64,000 nucleotides of DNA, taken from positions 2,967-66,966 of the IMG/VR virus record IMGVR_UViG_3300036791_000892; one strand, written 5' to 3'. The notes beneath the pieces were generated by a model. That model made no database searches. It was not told the origin of the DNA and saw nothing but the letters and a program-made list of their open reading frames with translations. The first letter of the stretch is position 1. Every line of letters begins with the position of its first letter. This document shows positions 2,162 to 20,999 of the stretch, in pieces. Made by a program: the position numbers and the translations under genes. The stretch is from a virus.

Positions 2162-4126
2162 TCAAGAAGGCCGAGTAACCTGACCCTGAATATCTCCCAC
2201 AGCATGTTGCAAATCAGCCTTGGTAATCCACGCTTTAAACTGATCTACTGACATAGATGTTACGGCACCGATACGTGCTGGTCCAGAACCATCGCTCCAG
2301 CTCTTGATGTAAGCAGCCAGAGCAGCATCCTGACTGTCAAAACCCAACATTACCTTATGCTCATCAAAGTGGGCAGGACTGAGACTCAGCTGGTCAATAA
2401 CAAATACGTAGGGGCTGGAGGGATCAGGCCCGAGGTAAGCGTCAAGCTGATCCCCATCAGCCCCGGTATGGGCACGAATATACCCATAATCTACAGGCAT
2501 AACACTTTCCCAATCTTTACCTCGTCTTACACTTCCTGCGGGATTTTCAATGACCATATATAAGCCGGTGTGCCAAGCCAGTGTTGAGGCTGAGCTATCT
2601 TGCGTGGGGCCATTCTGTGTGGGCTTGCCATTCGACTTAGTTCCTCGCGTTCCCCACTCACCACGTCCCCATGATGGATCGTTGACTCCTGCTTCACGAC
2701 CCTCAGGGACTTCAGTACCAGCCTTGATAGCAGCGACCTGTACAGGTACAGGCAGCGGAGGTAGATCGTATTCAGCATTACGAATCTCTTCATCGCTGAT
2801 GCTCTCAAACCTGCCAGTAGTATATGATGACGCGCGAAGTTCCTTCAGTGAATCCTGGCGATTGATAATACCAGCCTCATGAGCCTCACGTGTTGTCCTC
2901 TCATCTTTGGATGCAATCTCTGACTTCTCCGTGTCCGTAAGCTGCCATAGAGGCTTGAAGTCAATGACAAACCCATCAGGTATGCTGATGCCCAGAGATT
3001 GAGCTGTAGCACGGAACATAGCTGTCATAGGTATGGTGAGGTCTGAAACCTGTCTCTGTCGGATGCCATCATAATATGTACGCAGATCACTTTCCCCGCT
3101 GGCATTCAGTCCTGTGGGGCTCTGACCAAGCAGCCGGACCAGCGGTATCTGTAAAGCTCCAGAAAGCTGCTGCCCCAGCTGGAGAAGCAACTCAGCGATT
3201 CCACTGAAGGCGTTGTGAACATGTCCCTCGAACTTGTCCTTGGCATCCAGCAGCGTGACACCTTCAATACTCTGAAATCGCCGCATCATGTCTACGTATT
3301 TGGTGAGACCGTCTAACGCTTTTCCTCCCTGTGATGCGATAGTCCTCAAACCCTCGATAGAGTAGGTACGGATGTAAGCCTTGTAGACGAGTTGTGATGC
3401 GCCTGTTGTTGCGCTGTCGTAAGCAATCATCCTATCGTAGATACGCTCCAGGACCGACAGACCCCACAGGTTTTCTGTGACTGACTGGTTAAACGGAAGT
3501 TCAATTCCCACAAGACGGAGGCAACGGGTGTGGTGTATCTTCATGCCGCGATATGCCTGTGCTGTGCTCATGATCTTGTAATACTTAGGCAGCCCCATCT
3601 CAGGACCGAGCTCAGTGATAAGATCATTAAAGCTAGGCTCGATCTGCCAGCGGTCCAGTACCATTAAACCCCTGAACTGGTCTTTACCGACACTCTGCAA
3701 GCGGAATGGTGTCTGTGGGTCCTGACCATCAATCAGTATTACTCCGATAGCACCACCATACAGACGGCTCCATTTTATTGTCTGGTTTACTTTTTTCCAC
3801 AGCTTCAGACGGACAAATTCTTCATGTATCTTCTCAGCGTCGGACGATGGAAGCCTCCCGCGGATATCGATTCCAGCACGGGTCATGTCGTCAGCTACTA
3901 AGTCAATGGCTACGCCGCCAAGCCATGATCCTCGGTGAATCCATTCAAGCATCTGCCTCTGGCGAGTGATGGGATTAAAACCGTATGAACCACCGGTAGT
4001 AATATTGTCGTTTCCCAAGCCCATCTTAGCGATGAAGTTCGTGAATGAGTCTGCCGAACGGGCCAAAGCCTTCTTCTCTGCTGAGGATGCAGATCTCATT
4101 GCTTGTTTTATTGACAACTTTGACAT
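2162..4126 (-). CDS. portal protein (DUF1073 type) with C-terminal inorganic-pyrophosphatase-like domain
   Basis: WSRLYGG, IHHTR, IPLVRLLGQSPTGLNASGESDLRTYYD portal motifs; C-terminus IENPAGSVR...DYGYI...GADGDQLD...FDEHKVMLGF. Confidence 0.9.
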   Translation of the reverse strand: MSKLSIKQAMRSASSAEKKALARSADSFTNFIAKMGLGNDNITTGGSYGFNPITRQRQMLEWIHRGSWLGGVAIDLVADDMTRAGIDIRGRLPSSDAEKIHEEFVRLKLWKKVNQTIKWSRLYGGAIGVILIDGQDPQTPFRLQSVGKDQFRGLMVLDRWQIEPSFNDLITELGPEMGLPKYYKIMSTAQAYRGMKIHHTRCLRLVGIELPFNQSVTENLWGLSVLERIYDRMIAYDSATTGASQLVYKAYIRTYSIEGLRTIASQGGKALDGLTKYVDMMRRFQSIEGVTLLDAKDKFEGHVHNAFSGIAELLLQLGQQLSGALQIPLVRLLGQSPTGLNASGESDLRTYYDGIRQRQVSDLTIPMTAMFRATAQSLGISIPDGFVIDFKPLWQLTDTEKSEIASKDERTTREAHEAGIINRQDSLKELRASSYTTGRFESISDEEIRNAEYDLPPLPVPVQVAAIKAGTEVPEGREAGVNDPSWGRGEWGTRGTKSNGKPTQNGPTQDSSASTLAWHTGLYMVIENPAGSVRRGKDWESVMPVDYGYIRAHTGADGDQLDAYLGPDPSSPYVFVIDQLSLSPAHFDEHKVMLGFDSQDAALAAYIKSWSDGSGPARIGAVTSMSVDQFKAWITKADLQHAVGDIQGQVTRPS

Positions 4127-4262
4127 CCCTGAAATGATATACCATGAGCTGGGTGCCTTGTCAAGCTAAGATGAGAAATCCTACGGTGATATGAAATCCT
4201 ACGTGTGATGTGGGATAATGTGGGAGTATGATGATGGGAGTGTAACTTAAGTTACGTGTGGT

Positions 4263-5549
4263 TTATTGTGATAAGCGTTCCCACTGTGCCAATTCGCCGC
4301 GCTGCATGATGAACAGGTCATGCGCGTAGCGTACTGAGTCCCACCCGTGATTGTGTCTGTCTTGGATGATAGGCAGCACTTCTCCTGTGACCCGATCGAC
4401 CTTATACGAATACAACCGTGCCTCTTCCTGCATATGCTTGCATGATGCGTGAATATGGATCTGGCGAAACGCCTTGAGATGCGCGATACCATCTTCCACT
4501 GAGCCCGGCCATTTTTCGCTTGGGGTGATATTAAACCCGCGTTTAGCCAGGTAGCTGATGGACTCCGGCCGGGATGAGTCAGCGTGTATGGGCCAGGTCT
4601 TTGCCGTATGAATGCCGTGTGCGGAACTCTCTCCTGGGTTAGCATTAGGATCTCCCTCGTTGATAAAACTCTCATAATCATCAATCTCAATGTTAAAGCC
4701 AAAAATCTCACGGTCTATCCACAAATCCTCGTCCGGAGGCTCACCCGTAGTATAGCTGCGCGTGAGCGCCATAGGATCATTAGCAAAACCAAAATCCAGT
4801 CCATGACGGAACAGCGGTGATGATGTGATAGTAAGATTATTGAGTGAGGATGGGTCTGGTGTAGTCCAGGTTTCAATCACGTAGCGATTCTTGAAGATGA
4901 CTGAGCTGCCAATCTTACGTGTGTTTCCTTCCCACACATGTTCGTAGGCTTCAGGGTCGATGGAGAGCATGTAAACACGTTCTTTTTCCAGTGTCGGGGG
5001 AAACCATGGATTGCGGTCCCAATTGACCTTAAGAATATCTGTATCTGGAGGGGTATTTACTACAAAACGCTGGTAGGTATCATCAGTCTCCTCCAGAGGA
5101 TTGAATGAGACCCAAATCTCTGAGCCGGTTTTTCGTATCGTCGGTATCAGTACTTCCCACGAGGATGATGATACAAGCTGGGCTTCTTCAACCCAGCAGA
5201 TGTCGATAGCCTCTGTGGACTTAATCTCATTAAAATTATGGCGGAGACCCTTGAAAATGAATTCGGTACCTGTGAGGCGATGTGTAATGGAAGTCTTGGT
5301 GACATCAAACCATTGGGATAATTGGAGAAGGTCTATCATGTCAACCAGGAGGCGGTGGACTGAATCTTTGATCGATGTTTGTAATTCGCGTGCACACAGG
5401 ATACGGAGGCGTTTTTCGGTAGCTAGGATGAGCAGAGCTCTCGCAAATGACCAGCTCTTAAGTCCACCCCTGCCACCATAGCGCACCTTGTAGCGCATGG
5501 GACGAAAGAGACCAGCATACTCCGGAGTAAACTGCGCATTAATCTGCAT
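4263..5549 (-). CDS. terL: terminase large subunit (PBSX type)
   Basis: YGGRGGLKS Walker A, CARE, WVEEA Walker B, SFNP, GLDFGF nuclease and NHGWDSVRYA motifs. Confidence 0.95.
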   Translation of the reverse strand: MQINAQFTPEYAGLFRPMRYKVRYGGRGGLKSWSFARALLILATEKRLRILCARELQTSIKDSVHRLLVDMIDLLQLSQWFDVTKTSITHRLTGTEFIFKGLRHNFNEIKSTEAIDICWVEEAQLVSSSSWEVLIPTIRKTGSEIWVSFNPLEETDDTYQRFVVNTPPDTDILKVNWDRNPWFPPTLEKERVYMLSIDPEAYEHVWEGNTRKIGSSVIFKNRYVIETWTTPDPSSLNNLTITSSPLFRHGLDFGFANDPMALTRSYTTGEPPDEDLWIDREIFGFNIEIDDYESFINEGDPNANPGESSAHGIHTAKTWPIHADSSRPESISYLAKRGFNITPSEKWPGSVEDGIAHLKAFRQIHIHASCKHMQEEARLYSYKVDRVTGEVLPIIQDRHNHGWDSVRYAHDLFIMQRGELAQWERLSQ

Positions 5550-5585
5550 TAGGGAATTGTATCAGAGGCTATGCCGCTCAGTCAA
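5550..5585 (-). promoter_or_regulatory. sigma70-like promoter for leaderless terL
   Basis: TTGACT-18 bp-(TG)-TACAAT, then 6 nt to the terL ATG; no SD. Confidence 0.6.
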
Positions 5586-5733
5586 GGCATGGGACGTTTG
5601 TAGGAATTTGGGAAAAAAATTTTGGCAACTTCGTGATTTTACAAAATCCTATCCCTGTATCAGGGCAACCTTGCGGTTGGCCAGAAATAAGAATGCTTCT
5701 CCAAGCAATTCAAATACCAAACTGCGAAAAAAA

Positions 5734-5755
5734 TTCTTATACGAACGTATAAGAA
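5734..5755. promoter_or_regulatory. palindromic operator-like site TTCTTATACG-AA-CGTATAAGAA
   Basis: perfect 10-bp inverted repeat, identical copy at 6129-6150. Confidence 0.8.
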
Positions 5756-5771
5756 ATAATTTCTAACCCCC

Positions 5772-5800
5772 TTGACAAAATTCGTATAAGAAATTATTAT
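5772..5800 (+). promoter_or_regulatory. cassette promoter 1 with operator half-site in spacer
   Basis: TTGACA-17-TATTAT, CGTATAAGAA at 5783-5792, ATG 7 nt after the -10. Confidence 0.85.
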
Positions 5801-5807
5801 CTTATTC

Positions 5808-6086
5808 ATGGACACGCTAGTAAATGACGCAATCGAAACGAACGATCAAGCCAATTCAGGCACAATAACAATCGAAAAGACATCCAAGCCAGTCAAGACA
5901 TCCAAGCCAGTCAAGTCTGAAAAGACAATGACGACACGCGACATGGCCAAAATTCTTGGCATAACATCCAAGCAATTGCGTCGCATCTTACGCGACACGG
6001 ACAAGTATGACGACGGCAAATATACGCGCTATTTGCTGACAAAAAGCGACTTGGATGCTGTCAAGAAAAAAATAGCTGGCAAGTAA
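5808..6086 (+). CDS. small HTH DNA-binding protein (paralogue of 10784 and 18688)
   Basis: MTTRDMAKILGITSKQLRRILR HTH signature; KTSKPV duplicated linker. Confidence 0.8.
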   Translation: MDTLVNDAIETNDQANSGTITIEKTSKPVKTSKPVKSEKTMTTRDMAKILGITSKQLRRILRDTDKYDDGKYTRYLLTKSDLDAVKKKIAGK

Positions 6087-6097
6087 ATCCAGACACG

Positions 6098-6130
6098 GAC
6101 GCGCTAGTCATCAAGCTAGCGCGTCATTTT
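6098..6130 (+). terminator. intrinsic terminator
   Basis: gacgcgctag N8 ctagcgcgtc followed by atttt. Confidence 0.75.
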
Positions 6131-6150
6131 CTTATACGAACGTATAAGAA
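6129..6150. promoter_or_regulatory. second full palindromic operator-like site
   Basis: TTCTTATACGAACGTATAAGAA. Confidence 0.8.
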
Positions 6151-6169
6151 AAAAATTCGAGGAGGTTTT

Positions 6170-6313
6170 ATGCTATTAGTTACTGACCCGCAAGAAAGAC
6201 GTATGAACATCGCCGCCATGCTAGAACGCGCCACCCCCTGCTGGCAAGCCCTAAACCCCATACCTCGGGCATCTGCCCTGCTCCAGACCCCAGCCCCCGG
6301 AGGAGACAAATAA
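6170..6313 (+). CDS. hypothetical 47-aa protein
   Basis: GGAGG SD, ATG 6170, stop abuts GTG of next gene; not in ORF track. Confidence 0.45.
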   Translation: MLLVTDPQERRMNIAAMLERATPCWQALNPIPRASALLQTPAPGGDK

Positions 6314-6526
6314 GTGGATCCCAATACAGTCACAGCCGCGCTATTGCTGATCGGCCTAGCCGGTTTTACGATCGGCTTCTACTTCCTCCCGACCACCATC
6401 GCCGGGCTGCGAAAACACAAAAACACCTTCATGATCCTCTCCCTGAACCTTGTTTTTGGGTGGACGATAATCGGGTGGTTCGCTCTGATAATCTTCGCTT
6501 GCGCATCCCAAGATAGGAAAGCATGA
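6314..6526 (+). CDS. superinfection immunity protein (T4 Imm-like)
   Basis: YFLPTxIAxxRKHxN...LNLxxGWTIIGW signature. Confidence 0.85.
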   Translation: MDPNTVTAALLLIGLAGFTIGFYFLPTTIAGLRKHKNTFMILSLNLVFGWTIIGWFALIIFACASQDRKA

Positions 6527-6651
6527 AAAACGACAAAAAACTTCTCCTCGTCATCTCCTTCACCTCCATCGCATGGGCGGTGCTCTCAGGCTCACTCCTC
6601 TCCATCCTCATCCTCATCGCAATATCAACCTACATCGTCATCTCATCCTAA
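6523..6651 (+). CDS. small hydrophobic membrane protein, 42 aa
   Basis: ATGA overlap with the imm-like gene; MKNDKKLLLVISFTSIAWAVLSGSLLSILILIAISTYIVISS. Confidence 0.55.
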   Translation: MKNDKKLLLVISFTSIAWAVLSGSLLSILILIAISTYIVISS

Positions 6652-6773
6652 CCCGAATGGGAGATCCTCCGATCTCTCATTCTTTTGCGTTGGGGTGATC
6701 ACCACCAACACCACCAACACCCCGATTGGTTCGGGATCCCCTCGATCACCCCCAAAAATAAATCTCCACCCCC

Positions 6774-6802
6774 TTGACATGGGATTGGCTTTCTTATACG
6801 AT
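6774..6802 (+). promoter_or_regulatory. cassette promoter 2, operator overlaps -10
   Basis: TTGACA-17-TACGAT; TTCTTATACG at 6791-6800; ATG 6 nt later. Confidence 0.8.
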
Positions 6803-6808
6803 TCTTGC

Positions 6809-7045
6809 ATGGACATGAATCAAATTCGCAACTTATTGCTAGCGCAACAAAAACATATTGGCACGATATCAACCAGACAATTTGGCATAGACGAATTTTA
6901 CGATGTCACACGATCAGCTCTTGACTTGGCATCACAACTTCTTGACATCGTACAAGACGGCAACCCCCAAGACTTTGAAAACCTCGATCTTGACAATTTT
7001 GACAACACTGGCATATGTCAAGAAATCCTCGATATCAAGTCATAA
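6809..7045 (+). CDS. small acidic protein, G[IV]CQxIxD family member 1 (leaderless)
   Basis: start reassigned to ATG 6809; similar to 7761 and 8633. Confidence 0.75.
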   Translation: MDMNQIRNLLLAQQKHIGTISTRQFGIDEFYDVTRSALDLASQLLDIVQDGNPQDFENLDLDNFDNTGICQEILDIKS

Positions 7046-7101
7046 CAAAATCCCCCGAAAACGAATCGGGGGTTTGTGTTGAAATTGAGATCACCACCCC
7101 C

Positions 7102-7130
7102 TTGACAAAATAAATCCCTTCGTTTATCAT
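7102..7130 (+). promoter_or_regulatory. cassette promoter 3
   Basis: TTGACA-17-TATCAT, ATG 6 nt later. Confidence 0.8.
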
Positions 7131-7136
7131 GTCTGT

Positions 7137-7415
7137 ATGTCAAACATATCTCATACTTGCCAAGACCAACCTCACTTGGCTTGTCCCGCTTGCAAATCCG
7201 CAAACGTCTATGAATTCTTCACCGAACAACTCGGTCACCCACCAACCGACGAAACACTGAAAGAGCTCCTGATCACCGACCCCTGCGGCAGAGATTGCAT
7301 GAAGGTCATTATGGCTGCAAGACTGTACATGATCCTCGCCGACCCCCACCCCGGTGTGACTGCACCACTTCTCACGTCAGTCGATTGCGCGGTTGGAATC
7401 CTCTGGCATGGCTAA
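7137..7415 (+). CDS. hypothetical Cys/His-containing protein (leaderless)
   Basis: ORF track; own promoter and downstream hairpin. Confidence 0.7.
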   Translation: MSNISHTCQDQPHLACPACKSANVYEFFTEQLGHPPTDETLKELLITDPCGRDCMKVIMAARLYMILADPHPGVTAPLLTSVDCAVGILWHG

Positions 7416-7471
7416 ACTAACCCCCACAGACGAAACGCTCGTTTGGGGGGTTTAACACCAACACCAGCCCC

Positions 7472-7500
7472 TTGACAGACATATTCCACTTTGATACAAT
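7472..7500 (+). promoter_or_regulatory. cassette promoter 4
   Basis: TTGACA-17-TACAAT with TG extension, ATG 6 nt later. Confidence 0.85.
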
Positions 7501-7506
7501 TTACTT

Positions 7507-7677
7507 ATGAAAACTGAACAAATCGTTTCCGAACTCCAACGCCTTTTTGCACTTCTTACTGACAATGCCCAACCCATCCCACCGTACAAAATCACCAACA
7601 ACCAAGACAAGCTCCTGGAGGTTGCTAAGGGTTTAGACCACCTGGCTGACAAACTCCTTGACTCGATTGACAGCTAA
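7507..7677 (+). CDS. hypothetical 56-aa protein (leaderless)
   Basis: MKTEQIVSELQRLFALLTDNAQPIPPYKITNNQDKLLEVAKGLDHLADKLLDSIDS; fills the gap between promoter and hairpin; not in ORF track. Confidence 0.75.
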   Translation: MKTEQIVSELQRLFALLTDNAQPIPPYKITNNQDKLLEVAKGLDHLADKLLDSIDS

Positions 7678-7725
7678 ACCCCATGAGGGGTTAGTGTAGG
7701 GGTGATCACCAACACCACCAGCCCC

Positions 7726-7754
7726 TTGACTAGGAGTTTATTTTCTTATACGAT
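7726..7754 (+). promoter_or_regulatory. cassette promoter 5, operator overlaps -10
   Basis: TTGACT-17-TACGAT; TTCTTATACG at 7743-7752. Confidence 0.8.
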
Positions 7755-7760
7755 TATTGC

Positions 7761-8150
7761 ATGACAATTTTCAATTCTGGCACGTTAACCCGCGAAACAT
7801 TACGTAAACTAACCCTTGCTCAACTTAAATATATGTCCACCCTCGCAACTGACGATGACTGGCAACACTCCGACGAAACGAATGATAATCTAACCTCAGC
7901 AATTACGCTCGCCGACCTTCTCCACGATCTGACAATCGATACAAGCATGAAAAATTCTGAATCTCAAGAATTTCAAGACACCCTCGATATGGCAAGATAC
8001 ATCTTCGATAACAAACTCCACTTGTTTACGGGTGGCATTTGCCAAGAAATTCATGACCTTCACCCTCGATCGCTCGATGACAATTTCGAACCACCTCCTC
8101 CAACCTCACATAAAAACACCCGGTGGGTTCATGCTTGGATATTTGATTAA
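7761..8150 (+). CDS. acidic protein, G[IV]CQxIxD family member 2 (leaderless)
   Basis: LAQLK...GICQEIHDLH. Confidence 0.75.
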   Translation: MTIFNSGTLTRETLRKLTLAQLKYMSTLATDDDWQHSDETNDNLTSAITLADLLHDLTIDTSMKNSESQEFQDTLDMARYIFDNKLHLFTGGICQEIHDLHPRSLDDNFEPPPPTSHKNTRWVHAWIFD

Positions 8151-8203
8151 ACACCATCAGACTAGAAATAGTCTGAGTCGTCAATACCAACACCTCCTTC
8201 CCC

Positions 8204-8232
8204 TTGACGAGGAGTTTATTTTCTTATACGAT
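8204..8232 (+). promoter_or_regulatory. cassette promoter 6, operator overlaps -10
   Basis: TTGACG-17-TACGAT; spacer AGGAGTTTATTTTCTTA identical to promoter 5. Confidence 0.8.
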
Positions 8233-8238
8233 TTATGC

Positions 8239-8550
8239 ATGACATATCAAAACCTCTTGCAAGCAATTGACGCGAAACTTGACTTAACCATCGACAACCT
8301 CACCTCCGAATTTGGCAATGAGGGTGCTGACATCGGGGATGCGGGAAATGCGATGGAGCTAATTGGCAATGCCATCGGGGACGATCATGAATCATACACC
8401 GCTGAGGAGTTTATTGCCAATCTAGCCAAAACCCTCGAACTCCCCAAATCCGAAATTCAAACCGCCTGGGATGAAATGAAATCGTGGGATAACAAGCAAT
8501 GGCATGACGCATTTAAAACTTATGACGCATACCCCGGCTTTCGGGGATAG
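8239..8550 (+). CDS. acidic hypothetical protein (leaderless)
   Basis: start reassigned to ATG 8239: MTYQNLLQAIDAK... Confidence 0.75.
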   Translation: MTYQNLLQAIDAKLDLTIDNLTSEFGNEGADIGDAGNAMELIGNAIGDDHESYTAEEFIANLAKTLELPKSEIQTAWDEMKSWDNKQWHDAFKTYDAYPGFRG

Positions 8551-8597
8551 CATCGAACAAACCCCACAATGTGGGGTGTTCGAGTCGCAAAAATCCC

Positions 8598-8626
8598 TTG
8601 ACAAGAGATTCGTTTTCTTATACGAT
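8598..8626 (+). promoter_or_regulatory. cassette promoter 7, operator overlaps -10
   Basis: TTGACA-17-TACGAT; TTCTTATACG at 8615-8624. Confidence 0.8.
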
Positions 8627-8632
8627 TCAGGC

Positions 8633-8941
8633 ATGACATATTTCGATATCGATTCTCTTACCAAAATTCAACTCCGTGAGATTACGATCGCCCAACTCAA
8701 ACACACCGCAACACTCTGCAATGACGACCACTGGCTATACTCCGACGACGGGTTCGATTACGTTCAAGCTGGTGTAACCTTGGCATCAAATCTGCTCCAT
8801 GCTATGGACCAATCACAAACCGACGCCGGTCAAGACCTCCATGATGCCAAAGAGCTCCTGGCAAACTTGGATGACTATGCATGTGATGGTGTTTGCCAAT
8901 ACATCTACGACCTCCATTTTAAATGCCTTGAACAAGACTAG
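8633..8941 (+). CDS. acidic protein, G[IV]CQxIxD family member 3 (leaderless)
   Basis: start reassigned to ATG 8633; IAQLK...GVCQYIYDLH. Confidence 0.75.
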   Translation: MTYFDIDSLTKIQLREITIAQLKHTATLCNDDHWLYSDDGFDYVQAGVTLASNLLHAMDQSQTDAGQDLHDAKELLANLDDYACDGVCQYIYDLHFKCLEQD

Positions 8942-8948
8942 GGGAGAT

Positions 8949-9266
8949 ATGAAAATTATAAGAGATAGCAACCCACGTATCGGGGAGATTGAAACCGAGA
9001 TAAGTAAACTCACCACTGAGCTGGAGCAGCTAATAGCTGCAACACCAAAAGAACTAGATCATAGCCGAACAAGCGTGTTCGAGGACATGCGTGACTGTGG
9101 TGAGGATGGAATACCAAAGATTGAGGTGCTAAAAGATGTATTAGACTGGCGCGTGGAGTGCATGGAAATGGCAAGAGATCTCTTAAGTCAGGGGAGGACG
9201 GTCGAAGCAGCAGAGGAACTAAAGAGCATAGATGAAACAATCGAAGGTCTAAACTACGGAGGTTAG
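8949..9266 (+). CDS. helical acidic protein, partial paralogue of 24630
   Basis: SD GGAG before ATG 8949 (MKIIRDSNPR...). Confidence 0.65.
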   Translation: MKIIRDSNPRIGEIETEISKLTTELEQLIAATPKELDHSRTSVFEDMRDCGEDGIPKIEVLKDVLDWRVECMEMARDLLSQGRTVEAAEELKSIDETIEGLNYGG

Positions 9267-9267
9267 A

Positions 9268-9441
9268 ATGAGAAGTATAGACGATGATGCGCGTATACTC
9301 ATCGCCAGTGTGGAGAGAGCACTGGCGAGGGGAACGAAACACTTCGACATCGACGGCAATGCACTCAACACCGTCGAGGAGATTCTTGAAGCACTGTGTA
9401 TAGATGGTAGAATCAGGTTTGAACCGAAGCCACCACAGTAG
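9268..9441 (+). CDS. hypothetical 57-aa protein
   Basis: GGAGG SD; MRSIDDDARILIASVERALARG...; not in ORF track. Confidence 0.55.
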   Translation: MRSIDDDARILIASVERALARGTKHFDIDGNALNTVEEILEALCIDGRIRFEPKPPQ

Positions 9442-9546
9442 GGGGCGGTCGCGGCAGGTAATTGAGGTCACGAAGTAATTTACCCTTCCCTCATTGGGTA
9501 ATGATCCTTCACGAAGCTCTTTACCTGCCACGAGCACCCCCTCCCC

Positions 9547-9575
9547 TTGACAAGGTGATCTTTTTCGTATAAGAT
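9547..9575 (+). promoter_or_regulatory. cassette promoter 8, reversed operator overlaps -10
   Basis: TTGACA-17-TAAGAT; CGTATAAGAT (1 mismatch) at 9566-9575. Confidence 0.75.
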
Positions 9576-9581
9576 ACTTGT

Positions 9582-9689
9582 ATGAAATTAAGACTGGCAA
9601 AACTGGCAAGACTAATCTCTTTTACCAACCACAAGCCAATACTCGGCAAAAACCAAATTGTCAAAATTCTCCTGGAGAAGTCAAAATGA
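9582..9689 (+). CDS. 35-aa basic leaderless peptide coupled to next gene
   Basis: MKLRLAKLARLISFTNHKPILGKNQIVKILLEKSK; TGA overlaps ATG 9686. Confidence 0.5.
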   Translation: MKLRLAKLARLISFTNHKPILGKNQIVKILLEKSK

Positions 9690-10051
9690 CAAGCAAAAAA
9701 CAACAGAAACAAATCTTCCTCGCAGCACTTGATCTCTATGTAACCTGGCTTAACTCCTTTCACGACGCCGCCGATCCCACTGATAACGAGCACCCATACA
9801 CCGCCAAAGATTTTACCGAAGGTTATGGACGTTATACAATCGTCTCCTGCAACCCAGCTGCAAACGCTGACCTCGTCCTCCATGTATCTCTGACCGACGG
9901 GGATGAAGGTGGACCTCATGACCTCATTTTTGGCTGGCATGAATCTGACAATACCATCAAATTCATCCTCCAGGGATTTGATACCCTCTGGTGCATGATT
10001 TATAACGACGGGGAATTTGACCTGAAGGGATTTAAGCCAAATGCAATCTGA
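9686..10051 (+). CDS. hypothetical protein
   Basis: SD GGAG; start reassigned to MTSKKQQ. Confidence 0.65.
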   Translation: MTSKKQQKQIFLAALDLYVTWLNSFHDAADPTDNEHPYTAKDFTEGYGRYTIVSCNPAANADLVLHVSLTDGDEGGPHDLIFGWHESDNTIKFILQGFDTLWCMIYNDGEFDLKGFKPNAI

Positions 10052-10358
10052 AGAGATGCTAGAACCTTCACTACCCTGCTGCGAGTTCTGCAACAAGGAG
10101 TTCAACCCCAACAACCTGGAAAGCACAAATGGTGAGTATCACGAACGCCGAGAAGATGAGTTCTCCCGCGGCAAGAAGTTCCCCTGGCAAAAGAAGCAAG
10201 GATCACATCCGTACATCTTCTGCTCTGAAGAATGTGAGCTGGAGTCGGTAGATGATTACCGCATAGGTATGTGCGAGCTGCGTGATGCAATCGCCCATGG
10301 AGAATACCCTGACGACACCGAAGATCTTGGACCGGATCCCATGAGGCCGGAATACTAG
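10041..10358 (+). CDS. acidic Zn-binding (CxxC...FCSEEC, TRASH-like) protein
   Basis: CEFC and FCSEEC motifs. Confidence 0.6.
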   Translation: MQSEEMLEPSLPCCEFCNKEFNPNNLESTNGEYHERREDEFSRGKKFPWQKKQGSHPYIFCSEECELESVDDYRIGMCELRDAIAHGEYPDDTEDLGPDPMRPEY

Positions 10359-10530
10359 GCAAAATGACAGTCAAGATACGAATTGAGATATCATTTTATC
10401 ATCTCGGGGTGGCCTTTTAAAATCCCCTCTGACATGTCTTGACCGTATCATGCCAAGACTAGAAGCAAATCGCCTAGAGGCAAGCAGAAAATCCCTTGAC
10501 AATCTGTGATATCTCTTGATATGCTTAGGC

Positions 10531-10710
10531 ATGTCAAACGAATTGAGTAATACGCGGATCGTTCGCCACCCTCAAAGACACCTGGAAGTGGTCGAGGTTG
10601 TTGATAAGAAAACATACTTCGTCTACTTCCGCGCTATCACCAAACCCCAGGAGCTCACTGACTTCCAGATCTACAAGCTGTACCAACAGAGTGACCACCT
10701 GGAAAATTAA
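10531..10710 (+). CDS. hypothetical protein (leaderless; promoter 9 at 10496-10525)
   Basis: TTGACA-18-TATGCT then ATG 5 nt later. Confidence 0.65.
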   Translation: MSNELSNTRIVRHPQRHLEVVEVVDKKTYFVYFRAITKPQELTDFQIYKLYQQSDHLEN

Positions 10711-10783
10711 TTTGAGCCCCCCTTGACAAATTGTCAGGGATAACTTATGATAATGCAAGTAAGAAATTCAAAGGAGACAAATC

Positions 10784-11143
10784 ATGGACAACGAAACTGT
10801 TAAACCGATCGATACTAACCCCGCCGTTCTCAACCTGGCCAAGAAGCCGGTCGAAGCTGCCAAGACCGCCAAGACAGCCAAGGCCAAGATCGCCAAGACC
10901 GCCAAGACCAAGACCGAAGCCAAGACCAATGGCAAAGAGGCCAAGACCACCAAGACCAACGGTGAGGCCAAACAGACCAAAGGTGGCATGACCACACGCG
11001 AGGCGGCCAAGATCCTCAAGACGACCCCGAAGGCTCTCCGCCGGGCACTTCGTGACATGGACAAATACGACGACGGTGTCTACACCCGTTACCTTCTGGG
11101 CAAAGCCGACCTCAACGCCCTGGGCAAGATTCTCAACGCTTAA
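10784..11143 (+). CDS. HTH protein with histone-H1-like AKT-rich N-terminus (promoter 10 at 10723-10751)
   Basis: AKTAKTAKAK repeats; MTTREAAKILKTTPKALRRALRDMDKYDDGVYTRYLL closely similar to 5808; SD AAGGAG. Confidence 0.8.
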   Translation: MDNETVKPIDTNPAVLNLAKKPVEAAKTAKTAKAKIAKTAKTKTEAKTNGKEAKTTKTNGEAKQTKGGMTTREAAKILKTTPKALRRALRDMDKYDDGVYTRYLLGKADLNALGKILNA

Positions 11144-11897
11144 CTTCGTCCGCCGGTGGCATAAGTATCTCTCTAGCCACCGGCTTCTTTTTGTCTTTTT
11201 TATTGACCACCTGCAACACCTGCACGGTGATCTTGGGTGGCTGTATGGGTGATCCGTCGGGATTGCTGAACTCATGCTTCATGATGTTCTGCCCCAGCTC
11301 ATCCCTCACCGCCTTGTGTATGCTGATCAATGAGTCCACCACGGGTGTATCAATATTATACACCTCCACCACCTGAAAATCATCACCCTTACCAATCCCC
11401 TTCAGCGTGCGGGTGACCAACCCAGTTCTCCCTCCTGGGACCTCTGCCATATCATCAGACTCCCCGCGCTCAAACACTGCGGTGGTGATGCGTTCGTGCA
11501 TGTCGTTGAGCACCGCTAGCCTCCGCTCCTTCTTCGCCAGACCCTCGCTCAAGAATCTCTTAGCATATGCTTCTGCACTGTTGTTCACCATCACCTTAAA
11601 TTCATCATGAGATTTCCAAGCCAACAACTGGCGTCTGGACATTCCCACAGTCTGGGCTACCTCGTTGAGTGTGTACCTTCCTTCACCGATCATCGCCGCA
11701 GCCATGATCTTCTTCTGCGAGCGTATGTCCAGACAAACCTGCTCTTTACTCCTTTTCTTGCCACCTTTCCTTCTATGCTTCAAACTTGGCTTCTCGTCAG
11801 TTGCCTGTACTTCTTCAGTGGTCATGTCATCAAGCTCTGCTCTACGCCTGAATCCTTCAGTGTTTGAGTCCCTCCGACATTTTGGTGTTACTCTCAT
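11133..11897 (-). CDS. terS: terminase small subunit (N-terminal HTH)
   Basis: HTH LNEVAQTVGMSRRQLLAWK; C-terminal ELGQ...KHEFSNPDGSPI typical of TerS; same strand as terL. Confidence 0.7.
   Translation of the reverse strand: MRVTPKCRRDSNTEGFRRRAELDDMTTEEVQATDEKPSLKHRRKGGKKRSKEQVCLDIRSQKKIMAAAMIGEGRYTLNEVAQTVGMSRRQLLAWKSHDEFKVMVNNSAEAYAKRFLSEGLAKKERRLAVLNDMHERITTAVFERGESDDMAEVPGGRTGLVTRTLKGIGKGDDFQVVEVYNIDTPVVDSLISIHKAVRDELGQNIMKHEFSNPDGSPIQPPKITVQVLQVVNKKDKKKPVAREILMPPADEVKR
11152..11192 (+). terminator. intrinsic terminator ending the island
   Basis: gccggtggc N15 gccaccggc followed by ttcttttt. Confidence 0.7.
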
Positions 11898-11927
11898 AAT
11901 TAACTCCCCACAACGTATGGTACAAAA

Positions 11928-12125
11928 TTCTTATACGAAGATTCAAGGCACCTGAAAACTTCTCATACTCATTCTTATACGAGAATCAAAATTCTTATAC
12001 GAGGGAGTATCAAACACCACCCCACCCCGATCTAGCAAGGGTGTGAGCGGTCTAGCGGAGTAATCTAGCAACCTATCCTCAAACCAAAAAACGATCACAA
12101 ACCTGTGAAAAAAAATTCTTATACG
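11928..12125. repeat. four direct copies of TTCTTATACG(A) upstream of terS
   Basis: copies at 11928, 11972, 11992, 12116. Confidence 0.85.
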
Positions 12126-12268
12126 ATCTTTAAAAATGGTCCGAGTTTCGCCCCTGATTTCAGGTATTTTCGACATCATTCTAACTTCTCTTTTTTGCCT
12201 CCATCGAGATTAAAAGTCGCTGGATCATTTTAAAAACTTTGCTGGTTTTGAGATTAAATATATCTGCA

Positions 12269-12467
12269 TTATCTGCTTATTCTTAGATAGCAAGTGTTAA
12301 TAAAATGAACTACTATGATAATCCAGTAAAAATCATATTCTCACTATCTCAATCTTCACGACTTTTTAAAATGAAACATTCATACCTCGACTCAAAAGAG
12401 AAACGCTACTGTCTCCAGCGTTTTTTCTATTTTTTTTAACTGTCCGTATCTAAGAATAAGCAGATAA
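12269..12467. repeat. 21-bp perfect inverted repeat flanking an AT-rich spacer
   Basis: TTATCTGCTTATTCTTAGATA (12269-12289) / TATCTAAGAATAAGCAGATAA (12447-12467). Confidence 0.85.
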
Positions 12468-12574
12468 CCCAGCGATTTCTCACCTTTTACTTTTTTGACA
12501 TCTCTTTGCCCCCTTCCCTTGACATGTCCTCATCCCTCTGTTATCATTTTTCATGCAATTCTACGGAGCCAATT

Positions 12575-13714
12575 ATGTCCAGACCTCGCAAAGAAATCTT
12601 CGACTGTATTCACGAGATTTATCATGCATTTGAAAGAGAAGGAATGTACATCTCAGCATCTTCAAAGCTGCTTACCAACATAAAATCTCTCTACTCTTAC
12701 CTCACATTCAAACGAGCACTTAATCTCCTCGGCGCAAAACTTGTAACTCGCAAAGTCAATATTCTCACCAACACACACAGCATGTCATCTTCACGAGTTA
12801 CACGGCATTACTATCATCTTGTAATAGACCCCAAACTAACACTCTGGAAAGCTAAACAGCGGGCTGATGAGCTCCCACTAGCATCCTACACTGAGTTATC
12901 TACCCGTATCCGTGCTCCCCGGCTCATGAAAAAAACCAAGACGGAGAGAGAAAAAATAGAAGATATCAAGAAACACCTACACGACCGAAGAAAGAAGGAA
13001 GCACACGACATGCAGAAGTCTGAGCCGGCCGGACTTTTCCACAACCGTCCTATGCAGACTAAGCAAGAGATTTTTGCCTCTGTACGCGAGTTGTTTCCAG
13101 TAACTAACTACAGATATCGAATAAGCCTCATCACGCTCAGTAAAGCACTCCGTCTTGTGGGAGCTAGACCTATCCAGATGGAAGATGGGTGGTATTGGAT
13201 GTATCCATCCGAGCAGATACTTGAGTTCGTCGAGGAGTTAACTCGGGACAAGCTGCCTGTCCCTGAGGTAGAAATCTTCAAGGAATGCCGCAGGCATAAC
13301 TATCTATGGATCCCCGAGGTTGTTGTGTTTAGTATAAAAGATAGAGAAATGCATAGGATGGTATGGCCCCAGGACAACTCTGCCCACATGAAATGGTGCT
13401 GGTATAATGGCAGGGCCGGGGCTTCATATCCACGCACAACACCAGAGGTTATTTACATGCCCATCGAGCCTCCCGTGAGAGTTAGAAAGCCGGAAGGAAC
13501 TGACATTGTGGGAGACTTTCTGCGAGATATTTTGGGAGAAGAACTCAAGGTAGATCACAAGATCATACACAGGGCAGCTGCTGATGTGGGTATATTACCA
13601 TTGCAGCTGCGCCAGAAAAATAGTTATGCCATAGGCCCAGGACAGCAGGTAGTAGGAGAGCGTTGGGGAGTAAAGAACAAGTTCGCATACTGGCACATCA
13701 CATATAAAGATTAA
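12575..13714 (+). CDS. basic protein with internally repeated, probably winged-helix, domains
   Basis: start reassigned after GGAG SD; repeats EIF...ITL/LTFxxAL.L.GA; promoter TTGACA-17-TATCAT at 12519-12547. Confidence 0.6.
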   Translation: MSRPRKEIFDCIHEIYHAFEREGMYISASSKLLTNIKSLYSYLTFKRALNLLGAKLVTRKVNILTNTHSMSSSRVTRHYYHLVIDPKLTLWKAKQRADELPLASYTELSTRIRAPRLMKKTKTEREKIEDIKKHLHDRRKKEAHDMQKSEPAGLFHNRPMQTKQEIFASVRELFPVTNYRYRISLITLSKALRLVGARPIQMEDGWYWMYPSEQILEFVEELTRDKLPVPEVEIFKECRRHNYLWIPEVVVFSIKDREMHRMVWPQDNSAHMKWCWYNGRAGASYPRTTPEVIYMPIEPPVRVRKPEGTDIVGDFLRDILGEELKVDHKIIHRAAADVGILPLQLRQKNSYAIGPGQQVVGERWGVKNKFAYWHITYKD

Positions 13715-13734
13715 CACCACACAGGAGTAACATC

Positions 13735-16700: not shown

Positions 16701-16847
16701 CTTGATTTCACGATGTTCGGTGTAGGCTTAGGGTTCTGTTTCAGTAACGGCTCGGCTTTTTTCTGTGTGCCGTTCTTTCTAGTTACTCGCGGGCCGGTAG
16801 AAGAGAAGCCGGTAGAAGAGGACGAATGTTCACCCGAGAAGAATTAA
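13735..16847 (+). other. run of small early hypothetical genes (13735, 14025, 14496, 14721, 15053, 15395, 15736, 16159, 16659)
   Basis: tightly packed plus-strand ORFs with SDs; promoters at 13961-13989 and 14987-15015. Confidence 0.7.
15053..15286 (+). CDS. conserved small protein (KVSxKGGVSVYGLGRFPVTLYxEQW)
   Basis: SD AAGGAG; motif recalled from bacterial and phage hypothetical proteins, function unknown. Confidence 0.7.
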   Translation: MADKKPTYEELQEQLEEMKKKEANLSFKVSDKGGVSVYGLGRFPVTLYYEQWQKLFDNIEQLKTFVKDNKKKMKMKE

Positions 16848-16978
16848 TACACTTACAATCACGTTTAAGAATCCAGTGTTATTGGATAATTTATCTCTCA
16901 AACCCAGACCTTCCCCTTGATCGTGATGAGATTATTCTCGGCTATTTTGAAACTTTGGAGATATCCAAAATACTCAAT

Positions 16979-17861: not shown

Positions 17862-17928
17862 AAAAAGTTTCAAAGATTTCCTTGACATACTGCCAGCAAA
17901 GGACTTAATATAGACTAGACGAGGCCAC

Positions 17929-18660: not shown

Positions 18661-18687
18661 CCACACAATTTAAAAAGGAGCAACAAA

Positions 18688-20997: not shown

Positions 20998-20999
20998 CT

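What the first reader, a model, noticed from the sequence alone, without database searches (positions are those of the whole stretch)
5730..11192. Array of about ten self-contained expression cassettes inserted between terL and terS
Seen: the island repeats one grammar. A C-rich lead-in (e.g. GATCACCA[A]CACCA...CCCC) precedes CCCTTGAC, a 17-18 bp spacer and a -10 box. An ATG follows 5-7 nt later with no SD in nine of the ten units (10723 has a leader and SD), then a small, often acidic ORF and in most units a hairpin. Promoter -35 boxes lie at 5772, 6774, 7102, 7472, 7726, 8204, 8598, 9547, 10496 and 10723. The genes differ while the regulatory joints are near-identical (promoters 5 and 6 share a ~29-bp stretch). 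Paralogous HTH genes open and close the array, and it contains an Imm-like gene. Established: mobile promoter/stem-loop cassettes in T4-type phages, SPO1 host-takeover genes, and Aca-controlled anti-CRISPR loci share parts of this logic. Inference: an exchangeable, co-repressed anti-defence or host-takeover cassette system that gains, loses and shuffles genes by recombination between the repeated promoter units.
Basis: partly seen in the sequence, partly recalled or inferred. Interest (0 to 1): 0.9.

Follow-up and report, generated by a model that had tools for sequence, protein, structure and literature searches.

The report
Leaderless promoter-gene units in a phage
A soil phage carries, between its two DNA-packaging genes, a row of small unknown genes that each begin right at a strong bacterial-type promoter with no ribosome-binding leader; one related phage carries a different set of these units.

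Summary
All ten CCCTTGAC promoters sit at the stated coordinates. In nine, an ATG follows the -10 box by 5-7 nt. Stable hairpins follow most units. The HTH paralogs, the Imm gene and terL are confirmed; terS is only probable.

Three corrections:
- The promoter class is phage-wide. Ten more CCCTTGAC sites lie at 12.5-26.6 kb, and 16 promoter-ATG fusions with ORFs occur in the record against 0.12 expected. One of them is terL itself.
- Ten promoters drive 17 ORFs, including three SD-linked operons.
- g5, g8 and g10 are paralogs, so the genes are not all different.

New here: an 11-nt motif, TTCTTATACGA, occurs 11 times against 0 expected. It lies only in island promoters and upstream of terS.

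One relative contig differs by unit-level events:
- P5-g8 and P6-g9 are absent.
- The P4 promoter is replaced by an SD.
- Imm-g4-P2-g5 and g11 are replaced.

My reading is an early accessory-gene region. It resembles T4-type PeSL regions and moron arrays, but the units are leaderless. Shuffling by promoter recombination and an anti-defence role are unproven. New variant of a known kind.

The parts
4263..5549 (-). terL (428 aa)
   Evidence: Pfam Terminase_3 3.5e-36 and Terminase_3C 8.2e-09. PHROG terL 3.3e-63.
5556..5585 (-). Predicted promoter fused to the terL start: TTGACT, 18 nt, TACAAT, 6 nt, ATG 5549
5734..5755 (.). 22-nt palindrome made of two abutting TTCTTATACGA half-sites, upstream of P1
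5772..5800 (+). P1 promoter, with a TTCTTATACGA site (minus strand, 5782-5792) in its spacer
   Evidence: 11 of 12 consensus matches. Motif.
5808..6086 (+). g1: leaderless, 92 aa, Lys-rich N-terminal tail plus C-terminal winged HTH
   Evidence: Paralog of g17. Weak HTH_17/ANT hits. Atlas structure rows of MerR, HTH_17 and KilAC type, TM about 0.5.
6098..6125 (+). Terminator hairpin after g1
   Evidence: -21.4 kcal/mol, 0 of 200 shuffles as stable. Also.
6129..6150 (.). Second copy of the 22-nt palindrome, before the SD of g2
6170..6313 (+). g2: 47 aa, SD-led (GAGGAGG)
6314..6526 (+). g3: superinfection-immunity-like membrane protein, GTG start, SD-led
   Evidence: Pfam PF14373 8.4e-17. PHROG 'immunity to superinfection' 7.7e-19.
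6523..6651 (+). g4: 42-aa hydrophobic peptide, ATGA overlap with g3
6655..6682 (+). Hairpin after g4
   Evidence: 3 of 200 shuffles as stable.
6774..6802 (+). P2 promoter. The -10 box TACGAT overlaps a TTCTTATACGA site.
6809..7045 (+). g5: leaderless, 78 aa, member of the g5/g8/g10 family
7052..7072 (.). Two-way hairpin after g5
   Evidence: 8 of 200 shuffles as stable.
7102..7130 (+). P3 promoter
   Evidence: 11 of 12 consensus matches. The stretch 7098-7223 differs at only 3 letters in the relative.
7137..7415 (+). g6: leaderless, 92 aa, 6 Cys
   Evidence: The stored gene call starts 13 residues later.
7419..7452 (+). Terminator hairpin after g6
   Evidence: -21.6 kcal/mol, 0 of 200 shuffles as stable.
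7472..7500 (+). P4 promoter. It is absent from the relative, which has an SD there instead.
7507..7677 (+). g7: leaderless, 56 aa
   Evidence: Aligned in the relative over 7534-7683.
7726..7754 (+). P5 promoter with a TTCTTATACGA site
7761..8150 (+). g8: leaderless, 129 aa, helical bundle. Absent from the relative.
   Evidence: AF2 pLDDT 87.2..
8157..8176 (.). Hairpin after g8
   Evidence: 0 of 200 shuffles as stable.
8204..8232 (+). P6 promoter with a TTCTTATACGA site. 92% identical to P5 over 36 nt.
8239..8550 (+). g9: leaderless, 103 aa, acidic. Absent from the relative.
8553..8583 (+). Hairpin after g9
   Evidence: -18.3 kcal/mol, 0 of 200 shuffles as stable.
8598..8626 (+). P7 promoter with a TTCTTATACGA site
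8633..8941 (+). g10: leaderless, 102 aa, paralog of g8
   Evidence: 38% identity, E 2.6e-18. An 89%-identical ortholog, P0004, has the same start.
8949..9266 (+). g11: SD-led, 105 aa. The relative has 250 other letters here.
9268..9441 (+). g12: SD-led, 57 aa
9440..9542 (+). Long structured element or terminator between g12 and P8
   Evidence: -50.6 kcal/mol, z -5.5, 0 of 200 shuffles as stable. No Rfam match.
9547..9575 (+). P8 promoter. The TTCTTATACGA site has one mismatch and lies on the minus strand, overlapping the -10 box.
9582..10358 (+). g13 (leaderless, 35 aa), g14 (9686-10051, ATGA overlap with g13) and g15 (10041-10358, 6 Cys)
10496..10525 (+). P9 promoter (18-nt spacer)
10531..10710 (+). 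g16: leaderless, 59 aa
10723..10751 (+). P10 promoter, the only one with a leader and an SD
10784..11143 (+). g17: 119 aa, Lys/Ala/Thr-rich repeats plus a winged HTH, paralog of g1
   Evidence: Homologs at 88% and 71% identity. The C-terminal domain resembles MerR-like DNA-binding domains, Z 6.0 and 5.9.
11152..11184 (+). Terminator hairpin after g17, lying inside the 3' end of terS
   Evidence: -20.1 kcal/mol, 0 of 200 shuffles as stable.
11133..11897 (-). Probable terS (254 aa)
   Evidence: PHROG terS families at 2.3e-06, 1e-04 and 1e-03, over residues 59-116 only. HTH_Tnp_1_2 falls below its cut-off. Atlas leads point to phBC6A51-type HTH and small-terminase clusters.
11928..12126 (.). Four direct TTCTTATACGA sites upstream of terS. 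The nearest lies in the spacer of a candidate terS promoter (TTGAAT, 18 nt, TACCAT).

Best explanation
This is the left end of the early, accessory-gene region of a virulent-looking soil phage of 66,966 bp. It lies between probable terS and terL and is read in the opposite direction to them.

HOW IT WORKS. The host sigma-70-type RNA polymerase starts at about ten strong promoters (extended -35 CCCTTGACA, 17-18 nt spacer, TAnnnT). In nine of them the A of the ATG sits where transcription should begin. The mRNAs would therefore be leaderless and need no Shine-Dalgarno sequence. Hairpins insulate most units.

REGULATION. An 11-nt motif, TTCTTATACGA, lies in or beside P1, P2 and P5-P8 and in the terS promoter region. 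It is most likely the operator of a phage regulator. The best candidate is the MerR-like winged-HTH protein g1, whose own promoter is flanked by the sites, or its paralog g17. That would switch part of the island and terS together.

PRODUCTS. Apart from a superinfection-immunity-type membrane protein, the products are small, mostly acidic proteins of unknown function. I infer early host-directed or exclusion functions.

CHANGE BETWEEN RELATIVES. Content changes in whole units, through tandem duplication (g5/g8/g10) and through gain, loss or replacement of units.

SHOWN VERSUS INFERRED. Shown: the sequence grammar, its statistics, the paralogy and the differences in one relative. Inferred: promoter activity, leaderless translation, who binds the motif, and the functions.
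For: - CCCTTGAC occurs 20 times against 2.36 expected.
- Promoter-ATG fusions with an ORF of 30 aa or more: 16 in the record against a mean of 0.12 (largest 2) in 100 simulations. Nine are in the island and one is at terL.
- Homolog N-termini support the leaderless starts. In alignment A5, 25 of 25 outside homologs begin 0-8 residues downstream of the g10 start and none extends upstream of it. An 89%-identical ortholog of g10 has the same start.
- Hairpins: 6 of 10 intergenic stretches beat all 200 shuffles.
- TTCTTATACGA occurs 11 times exactly against 0.00 expected, all between 5734 and 12126.
- The g17 C-terminal domain resembles MerR-like DNA-binding domains: pSK1 Par Z 6.0, RacA Z 5.9, and many MerR-family rows.
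- Phage context: replication and nucleotide-metabolism genes (PolA-UDG, primase-helicase, SNF2, NUDIX, dUTPase). No integrase turned up among the ORFs scanned.
- Unit-level differences in the relative contig.
- P5 and P6 are 92% identical with unrelated ORFs, whereas P5 and P7 are 75% identical with paralogous ORFs.
- Among ten TerL relatives, all ten have a small same-strand ORF abutting terL, and 5 of the 10 hit PHROG terS families. The split terS-terL arrangement here is therefore derived.
Against: - There is no transcript data. No RNA run holds the stretch, so no start site is mapped.
- The host is unknown. Kinship of structural genes only hints at Pseudomonadota, where leaderless genes are few. 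One paper predicts 55 leaderless proteins in P. aeruginosa PAO1 (PMC8244752, passage seen).
- The C-rich rather than AT-rich stretch upstream of the -35 box is unusual for strong sigma-70 promoters.
- Only one relative contig was seen, and it was aligned at a threshold of 80%. 'Other letters' at joints may be diverged homologs rather than different genes.
- The regulator-motif pairing is a guess. TerS also has an HTH and sits beside four sites.
- terS identity rests on weak hits.
Confidence: 0.6

Rival explanations
1. Active cassette shuffling. The repeated terminator-promoter joints would be the substrates of homologous recombination, which deletes, duplicates, circularises and swaps the genes between them, as described for PeSL motifs of T4-type phages.
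For: - P5 and P6 share 33 of 36 nt plus an upstream CACCA stretch, while g8 and g9 are unrelated.
- The relative lacks exactly P5-g8-P6-g9. The right edge of that gap lies 10 nt before the -35 box of P7.
- The relative also lacks the P4 unit.
- The right edge of the Imm-g5 replacement lies 4 nt before the -35 box of P3.
- PeSL-bounded indels and mini-circles are reported in the abstract of PMC2839356 (read); I also read its section 13 on PeSL anatomy.
Against: - All six joints have 'both' = 0, meaning no shared letters at the junction.
- Only 3 of 6 joints touch a promoter unit. The g11 swap is bounded by start codons instead.
- No joints appear in the source run X1, though contigs drop rare variants.
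- The repeats are short (36-59 nt) and mostly 50-80% identical.
Confidence: 0.2
2. An immunity or lysis-lysogeny control region of a temperate phage. g1 would be a cI-like repressor made from a leaderless mRNA, with Imm and other lysogenic-conversion genes (morons) expressed from a prophage.
For: - g1 is leaderless and its promoter is flanked by palindromic sites. Lambda cI is a known leaderless mRNA (PMC9031893, passage seen).
- An Imm_superinfect gene is present.
- The units have a promoter-gene-terminator anatomy.
Against: - No integrase, excisionase or partition family turned up among the ORFs scanned with Pfam or PHROGs. Not every small ORF was scanned.
- The phage has its own replication and nucleotide-metabolism module.
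- Twenty promoters of one class across 21 kb look like an early lytic programme.
- No copy was found as a prophage: the sheath scan of genome contigs gave 60% identity at most.
Confidence: 0.1
3. The repeats are not promoters. They would be binding sites for packaging, replication or partition proteins, for example pac-type TerS sites or centromere-like repeats for the RacA/Par-like HTH proteins. The ATG geometry would then be incidental.
For: - Four direct TTCTTATACGA copies lie beside terS.
- The best structural rows for g17 are DNA-segregation proteins, pSK1 Par and RacA, at a modest Z of about 6.
Against: - The CCCTTGACA sites have a fixed 17-18 nt spacer to a TAnnnT hexamer and a fixed 5-7 nt gap to an ATG that opens an ORF: 16 cases against 0.12 expected.
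- 19 of the 20 CCCTTGAC sites point with the genes on the + strand, and the one on the - strand precedes a - strand ORF.
- This rival could still hold for the TTCTTATACGA motif alone.
Confidence: 0.05

Closest known systems
PeSL (promoter-early stem-loop) regulatory cassettes in hyperplastic regions of T4-type phages (Arbiol et al. 2010, PMC2839356: abstract and section 13 read; Comeau et al. 2014, PMC4122927: search listing only)
   Same: - Dense repeats of strong sigma-70-like early promoters are coupled to stem-loop terminators.
- They are placed before small genes of unknown function in a variable region.
- Differences between close relatives fall at these units.
   Different: - PeSLs have an AT-rich stretch upstream of the -35 box and end with a Shine-Dalgarno sequence plus start codon. 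Here the upstream stretch is C-rich, and 9 of 10 units have no leader at all.
- This phage is not T4-like.
- No mini-circles and no junction homology have been shown here.
Morons of lambdoid and other phages: promoter-gene-terminator units added between conserved genes (recalled from Juhala et al. 2000 and Hendrix's reviews; not read here)
   Same: - The units are autonomous: promoter, ORF, terminator.
- They are present or absent between relatives.
- One encodes a superinfection-immunity-type protein.
   Different: - Morons are usually single insertions expressed from a prophage.
- Here there is an array of about ten units, in a phage without lysogeny genes among those scanned.
- The units use a promoter class shared with the whole early region.
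Leaderless phage genes: lambda cI from PRM (PMC9031893, passages seen), and leaderless middle and late transcripts of Thermus phage phiYS40 (Sevostyanova et al. 2007; recalled, paper not held)
   Same: The -10 box lies about 6-7 nt before the start codon, so the mRNA would start with AUG.
   Different: - Lambda has one such gene.
- As I recall it, phiYS40 uses leaderless transcripts from -35-less promoters in a Deinococcus-Thermus host, where that is the norm (PMC12340547, abstract in the search listing).
- Here the promoters are full -35/-10 early promoters, and the phage's structural genes are akin to those of Pseudomonadota phages.
SPO1 host-takeover module and Aca-controlled anti-CRISPR operons (both recalled; not read here)
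   Same: - A cluster of small early genes is driven by several strong host-type promoters (SPO1).
- An HTH gene is linked to promoters that carry inverted repeats (Aca).
   Different: - No sequence or fold match to any known host-takeover, Acr or Aca family was found.
- SPO1 genes have strong SDs.

Membership tests
PeSL cassettes of T4-type phages | Strong sigma-70 consensus promoter repeated before small ORFs | tested here: met
   Ten sites score 9-11 of 12 consensus matches. CCCTTGAC occurs 20 times against 2.36 expected.
PeSL cassettes of T4-type phages | Stem-loop terminator or attenuator as part of the motif | tested here: met
   6 of 10 intergenic stretches beat all 200 shuffles and 2 were marginal. 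The hairpin lies upstream of the promoter rather than inside it.
PeSL cassettes of T4-type phages | [quoted passage not shown] | tested here: not met
   The upstream stretch is C-rich. 9 of 10 units have the ATG 5-7 nt after the -10 box, which leaves no room for an SD.
PeSL cassettes of T4-type phages | Indels and replacements between close relatives are bounded by the motifs | tested here: inconclusive
   3 of 6 joints in one relative contig touch a promoter unit, and no junction homology was seen.
PeSL cassettes of T4-type phages | Mini-circles formed by recombination between motifs | not testable with these tools
   Only contigs were available, not raw reads.
Leaderless mRNA genes | -10 hexamer about 6-7 nt before the start codon, with no SD | tested here: met
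   16 sites in the record, 9 of them in the island.
Leaderless mRNA genes | Mapped 5' end at or within a few nt of the AUG, and translation from it | not testable with these tools
   No RNA holder was listed.
Imm_superinfect (PF14373) | Profile match above the curated cut-off | tested here: met
   g3 scores 61.2 bits against a cut-off of 27.9, E 8.4e-17.
Small terminase subunit | Profile match to a TerS family over the whole protein | tested here: inconclusive
   Three PHROG terS families match at 2.3e-06 to 1e-03, over residues 59-116 only. Pfam HTH_Tnp_1_2 scores 26.2 bits, below its cut-off of 27.9. The Atlas gives leads only.
Small terminase subunit | Lies directly upstream of terL on the same strand | tested here: not met
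   It is separated from terL by 5.6 kb of opposite-strand genes. In ten TerL relatives, all ten have a small ORF abutting terL.
MerR-like winged-HTH DNA-binding domain (g1, g17) | Fold match of the C-terminal 50 residues | tested here: inconclusive
   The model has pLDDT of 70-80 only in residues 68-119. VIA-align gives Z 6.0 and 5.9 for pSK1 Par and RacA, with many MerR-family rows at Z 3.4-4.5. Pfam HTH_17 scores 18 bits, below its cut-off of 27.
Aca-controlled anti-CRISPR locus | A known Acr or Aca family member | tested here: inconclusive
   Pfam and PHROGs gave no hits for g5-g16. No dedicated Acr library was available.

The most novel reading that the evidence does not exclude
In this phage lineage the leaderless design is what makes the regulatory joint universal. 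A terminator-promoter module of about 80 nt that ends 6 nt before an ATG can express any ORF without a matched ribosome-binding site. Genes can then flip between operon-internal (SD-led) and stand-alone (leaderless) states. That flip is seen at g7, where the relative has AGGAG, four bases and ATG in place of the P4 module. Whole units can also be gained or lost. A phage that starts at least 16 genes this way, terL among them, may also tilt host translation initiation towards 5'-AUG mRNAs as part of takeover.
Probability: 0.25. Interest if true: 0.75.

Novelty: new variant of a known kind. Interest (0 to 1): 0.55.

Why it matters
Phage early regions hold most of the unknown host-takeover and counter-defence genes, and how they turn over is known in detail only for T4-type phages. 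This is an unrelated soil phage with PeSL-like joints in which the promoter is fused to the start codon.

If transcription and translation really start at those ATGs, three things follow:
- It would be a compact, RBS-free expression unit, of interest for phage evolution and for synthetic biology.
- It would be a case of phage-wide leaderless gene expression outside the lineages where that is the norm.
- It would be a practical warning for annotation. Stored gene calls mis-start at least g5 and g6.

The work also defines a small, uncharacterised helical protein family, with about 36 distant members in 1.84 billion representatives, that is multiplied in the island.

Tried and rejected
RELATIVES.
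- blastn of 4200-12000 against cultured phages gave one 215-nt terL hit at 70% identity.
- tblastn of g1 against the phage collection gave nothing.
- TerL relatives in IMG/VR reach 57% identity at most. tblastn finds none of the island genes or terS in the 80 loci kept.
- The HTH alignment and terS found nothing in viral contigs. The HTH alignment found nothing in metagenome contigs.
- The 22-nt palindrome found nothing in viral contigs.
- The promoter-plus-motif pattern in metagenome contigs gave one hit inside an ABC-permease ORF. I judged it chance.
- P0011, a family member on a 69.5-kb contig, was not found in viral contigs.
- I therefore never saw the DNA of the relative contig, only its alignment tables.

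RNA. No RNA holder was listed. This says nothing about expression.

HOST.
- No tRNA genes were found.
- Structural-gene kinship points only loosely to Pseudomonadota.
- The g5/g8/g10 profile found nothing in 4 genomes that hold sheath relatives. In 401 genomes of one phylum it gave 4 weak per-genome hits (E 1e-4 to 5e-4), which I take as chance.

FUNCTION.
- Pfam and PHROGs gave nothing for g2, g5-g16.
- For the g8 model, Foldseek against pdb and BFVD gave no hit at E of 1e-3 or better. VIA-wide gave a best Z of 7.2 on BAR and other helical bundles, which is generic.
- A PDB sequence search with the HTH alignment found nothing.
- Two long hits of the family profile, P0024 and P0035, are repetitive proteins (Cna_B and similar). 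I dropped them as spurious.
- Rfam found nothing in 5400-12700.

REJECTED AND UNAVAILABLE.
- g9 as a clear member of the g8 family: it aligns poorly (24% identity).
- Literature searches turned up no paper describing an array of leaderless promoter units in a phage. This is not proof that none exists.
- Supplements of papers were not consulted.

Full report
WHERE IT LIES. The window is bases 2967-66966 of a 66,966-bp virus record that CheckV rates as complete. Only two public runs hold the stretch, both labelled soil metagenome, and one of them is probably the source.

The minus strand carries these genes:
- The portal, with a C-terminal InPase domain (2162-4126).
- terL (4263-5549): Terminase_3 at 3.5e-36 and a PHROG terL family at 3.3e-63.
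- Further on, a 254-aa HTH protein (11133-11897).

The 254-aa protein matches three PHROG small-terminase families at 2.3e-06 to 1e-03, but only over residues 59-116. Atlas leads point the same way. I call it probable terS.

Between terL and terS, everything is read on the plus strand. I checked ten TerL relatives at 57% identity or less. All ten have a small same-strand ORF that ends at terL, and five of the ten hit PHROG terS families. The split arrangement here is therefore derived.

- CCCTTGAC occurs at each of the ten stated places. The window holds 20 copies against 2.36 expected, with at most 6 in any of 100 shuffles.
- All ten sites are in the sigma-70 scan, with 9-11 of 12 consensus matches and spacers of 17-18 nt.
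- My own scan of the whole record looked for TTGAC, a 16-18 nt spacer, TAnnnT, 3-9 nt and then ATG. It found 20 sites, 16 of which open an ORF of at least 30 aa. First-order Markov simulations gave a mean of 0.12 and a maximum of 2 in 100.
- Nine of the 16 are the island starts: 5808, 6809, 7137, 7507, 7761, 8239, 8633, 9582 and 10531, with gaps of 5-7 nt. The tenth promoter (10723) has a leader and AAAGGAG before ATG 10784.
- Of ten intergenic stretches folded, six beat all 200 shuffles, two were marginal (3/200 and 8/200), and two were not significant.
- g1 and g17 are paralogs, 60% identical over 65 aa with E 7e-20.
- g3 is an Imm_superinfect protein (8.4e-17).
- Ten of the 17 ORFs have a pI of 5.3 or less.

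1. The grammar is phage-wide.
- Ten more CCCTTGAC sites lie at 12516-26613.
- Promoter-ATG fusions also precede ORFs at 17658, 19206, 23251, 26644, 30316 and 17452(-).
- terL itself has one: TTGACT, 18 nt, TACAAT, 6 nt, ATG 5549.
- With the replication and nucleotide-metabolism module at 30-45 kb, the island reads as the left end of a long early region in which terS is embedded.

2. Ten promoters serve 17 ORFs.
- g2-g3-g4 follow g1's terminator and have SDs but no CCCTTGAC promoter of their own.
- g11-g12 follow g10.
- g14-g15 follow the 35-aa g13 through an ATGA overlap.

3. The genes are not all different.
- g8 and g10 are 38% identical (E 2.6e-18), and g5 aligns with them.
- A profile of the three finds 41 proteins at E of 1e-3 or better among 1.84 billion representatives, six of them at 1e-10 or better.
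- Of those 41, two are the window's own proteins, one is an 89%-identical ortholog of g10, and two are repetitive proteins that I dropped.
- The family has no Pfam or PHROG entry.
- It models as a confident helical bundle, pLDDT 87.2, with no specific structural match.
- The homologs' N-termini never extend upstream of the leaderless ATG. All 25 begin 0-8 residues downstream of the g10 start.

4. A second repeat marks a local regulon.
- TTCTTATACGA occurs 11 times exactly against 0.00 expected, all between 5734 and 12126.
- Two abutting inverted copies form a 22-nt palindrome upstream of P1, and again after g1's terminator.
- One copy lies in P1's spacer.
- One copy overlaps the -10 box of each of P2, P5, P6 and P7. 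A one-mismatch copy overlaps the -10 box of P8.
- Four direct copies lie upstream of terS. The nearest sits in the spacer of a candidate terS promoter, in the same arrangement as in P1.
- The C-terminal 50 residues of g17 model as strand-helix-helix-strand-helix at pLDDT 70-80. They most resemble MerR-like DNA-binding domains: pSK1 Par Z 6.0, RacA Z 5.9, and many MerR-family rows (the Atlas leads agree).
- I infer, but have not shown, that g1 and/or g17 bind this motif.

RELATIVES.
- No close relative could be fetched as DNA.
- g17 has only two homologs among 5.8 billion proteins, at 88% and 71% identity.
- Laying the contigs of the two runs on 4300-12500 showed a 5,153-nt contig in run X2. 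It covers 5580-12025 in pieces: g1, part of g2, P3 with the start of g6 (3 differences in 126 nt), g7, P7-g10, and g12 through terS.

There are six joints, and none has letters shared across the junction:

| Joint | Letters skipped | In the relative | What it covers |
|---|---|---|---|
| 6089>6209 | 119 | 93 other letters | intergenic region and the start of g2 |
| 6296>7098 | 801 | 524 other letters | Imm, g4, P2 and g5; right edge 4 nt before P3's -35 |
| 7223>7389 | 165 | not known | inside g6 |
| 7428>7534 | 105 | 36 letters | the P4 unit; see below |
| 7683>8588 | 904 | 1 letter | P5-g8 and P6-g9 absent; right edge 10 nt before P7's -35 |
| 8952>9268 | 315 | 250 other letters | the body of g11, bounded by the start codons of g11 and g12 |

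At 7428>7534 the 36 letters read AGGAG, four bases, ATG, and then the start of g7. The relative therefore has a Shine-Dalgarno sequence where this phage has half a terminator plus the P4 promoter.

Three of the six joints touch a promoter unit. The source run shows no joints. There are three caveats:
- This is one contig.
- The alignment threshold was 80%, so 'other letters' may be diverged homologs.
- Contigs hide rare variants.

Within the window, P5 and P6 are 92% identical over the 36 nt before the ATG, while their ORFs match at chance level (32% and 23%). P5 and P7 are 75% identical, with ORFs 50-53% identical at the DNA level. Promoter segments and ORFs thus have partly separate histories.

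READING. The best-supported account is an early accessory-gene region built from terminator, promoter and leaderless-ORF units. Part of it is under a shared operator, and it turns over by unit-level gain, loss, replacement and tandem duplication.

The PeSL cassettes of T4-type phages are the closest described system. They combine strong sigma-70 promoters with stem-loops in hyperplastic regions and mediate modular shuffling and mini-circles (PMC2839356, abstract and section 13 read). They differ from these units in two defining features:
- They have an AT-rich upstream stretch, where this one is C-rich.
- They have a Shine-Dalgarno sequence before the start codon, where these units have none.

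Morons, the SPO1 host-takeover module and the leaderless transcripts of phiYS40 are cited from memory. Lambda cI as a leaderless mRNA appears in passages of PMC9031893. One dRNA-seq study found no leaderless transcript in phage phiKZ and predicted 55 leaderless proteins in its Pseudomonas host (PMC8244752, passages).

My four literature searches found no description of a phage with an array of promoter-ATG fusions. That is weak evidence of absence.

UNKNOWNS. The host is unknown: there are no tRNAs, and structural genes are 46-60% identical to those of Pseudomonadota phages and prophages. Also unknown are whether the ATGs are real 5' ends, who binds the motif, and what the small acidic proteins do.

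VERDICT. The feature is real, and more regular and more widespread in this genome than reported. It is a new variant of a known kind, with moderate interest.

Noticed in passing
window 5549-5585 (-): terL itself starts 6 nt after the -10 box of a sigma-70-like promoter (TTGACT, 18 nt, TACAAT). A late packaging gene thus appears to have its own leaderless start, uncoupled from terS.
   Followed up: partly
window 2162-4126 (-): The portal protein carries a C-terminal InPase (inorganic pyrophosphatase-like, PF18823) domain at 1.1e-34. The domain also matches PHROGs annotated as minor head protein and DarB-like antirestriction protein.
   Followed up: no
window 9440-9542 (+): A 103-nt structured element lies between g12 and P8. 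The 111-nt stretch folded gave -50.6 kcal/mol, z -5.5, with 0 of 200 shuffles as stable. There is no Rfam match. Its 3' arm forms the C-rich lead-in of P8, and the relative lacks 6 nt of that C-run.
   Followed up: partly
window 6684-6713, 7437-7466, 7691-7720: A repeated lead-in contains the 10-nt palindrome GGTGATCACC (which holds a GATC site), followed by CACCA repeats. It lies upstream of P2 (distal), P4 (a variant) and P5. Its function is unknown.
   Followed up: no
window 12251-12485: Inverted repeat with 55-nt arms, 75% complementary and 125 nt apart, just upstream of the promoter at 12519. It could be an origin or a regulatory site.
   Followed up: no
window 5877-5912 and 10854-10971: The N-terminal tails of the two HTH proteins are encoded by short tandem repeats (18-nt AAGACATCCAAGCCAGTC twice in g1; GCCAAGAC-type repeats in g17). 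These give Lys/Thr/Ala-rich tails of differing length. The homologs P0002 and P0003 differ mainly there.
   Followed up: partly
window 6695-7045 and 7137-7415: Stored gene calls miss the leaderless starts. g5 is on record as 116 aa from a GTG at 6695, upstream of its own promoter. g6 is on record as 79 aa, starting 13 residues late.
   Followed up: yes
window 37584-38261, 39089-41626, 52746-55397: Three other gene features. There is a thymidylate-synthase-like protein with only a partial match, which could be a pyrimidine hydroxymethylase and a hint of modified DNA. There is a PolA fused to a UDG-family domain. And a baseplate protein carries PKD domains plus a Pam3_gp18 cyanophage plug domain.
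   Followed up: no
window 7098-7178: A third, more distant contig in run X1 (1,229 nt, depth 4.5) matches only P3 plus the first codons of g6, with 9 differences in 81 nt. It runs on unlike this phage on both sides. It may be another phage carrying the same unit in a different setting.
   Followed up: no
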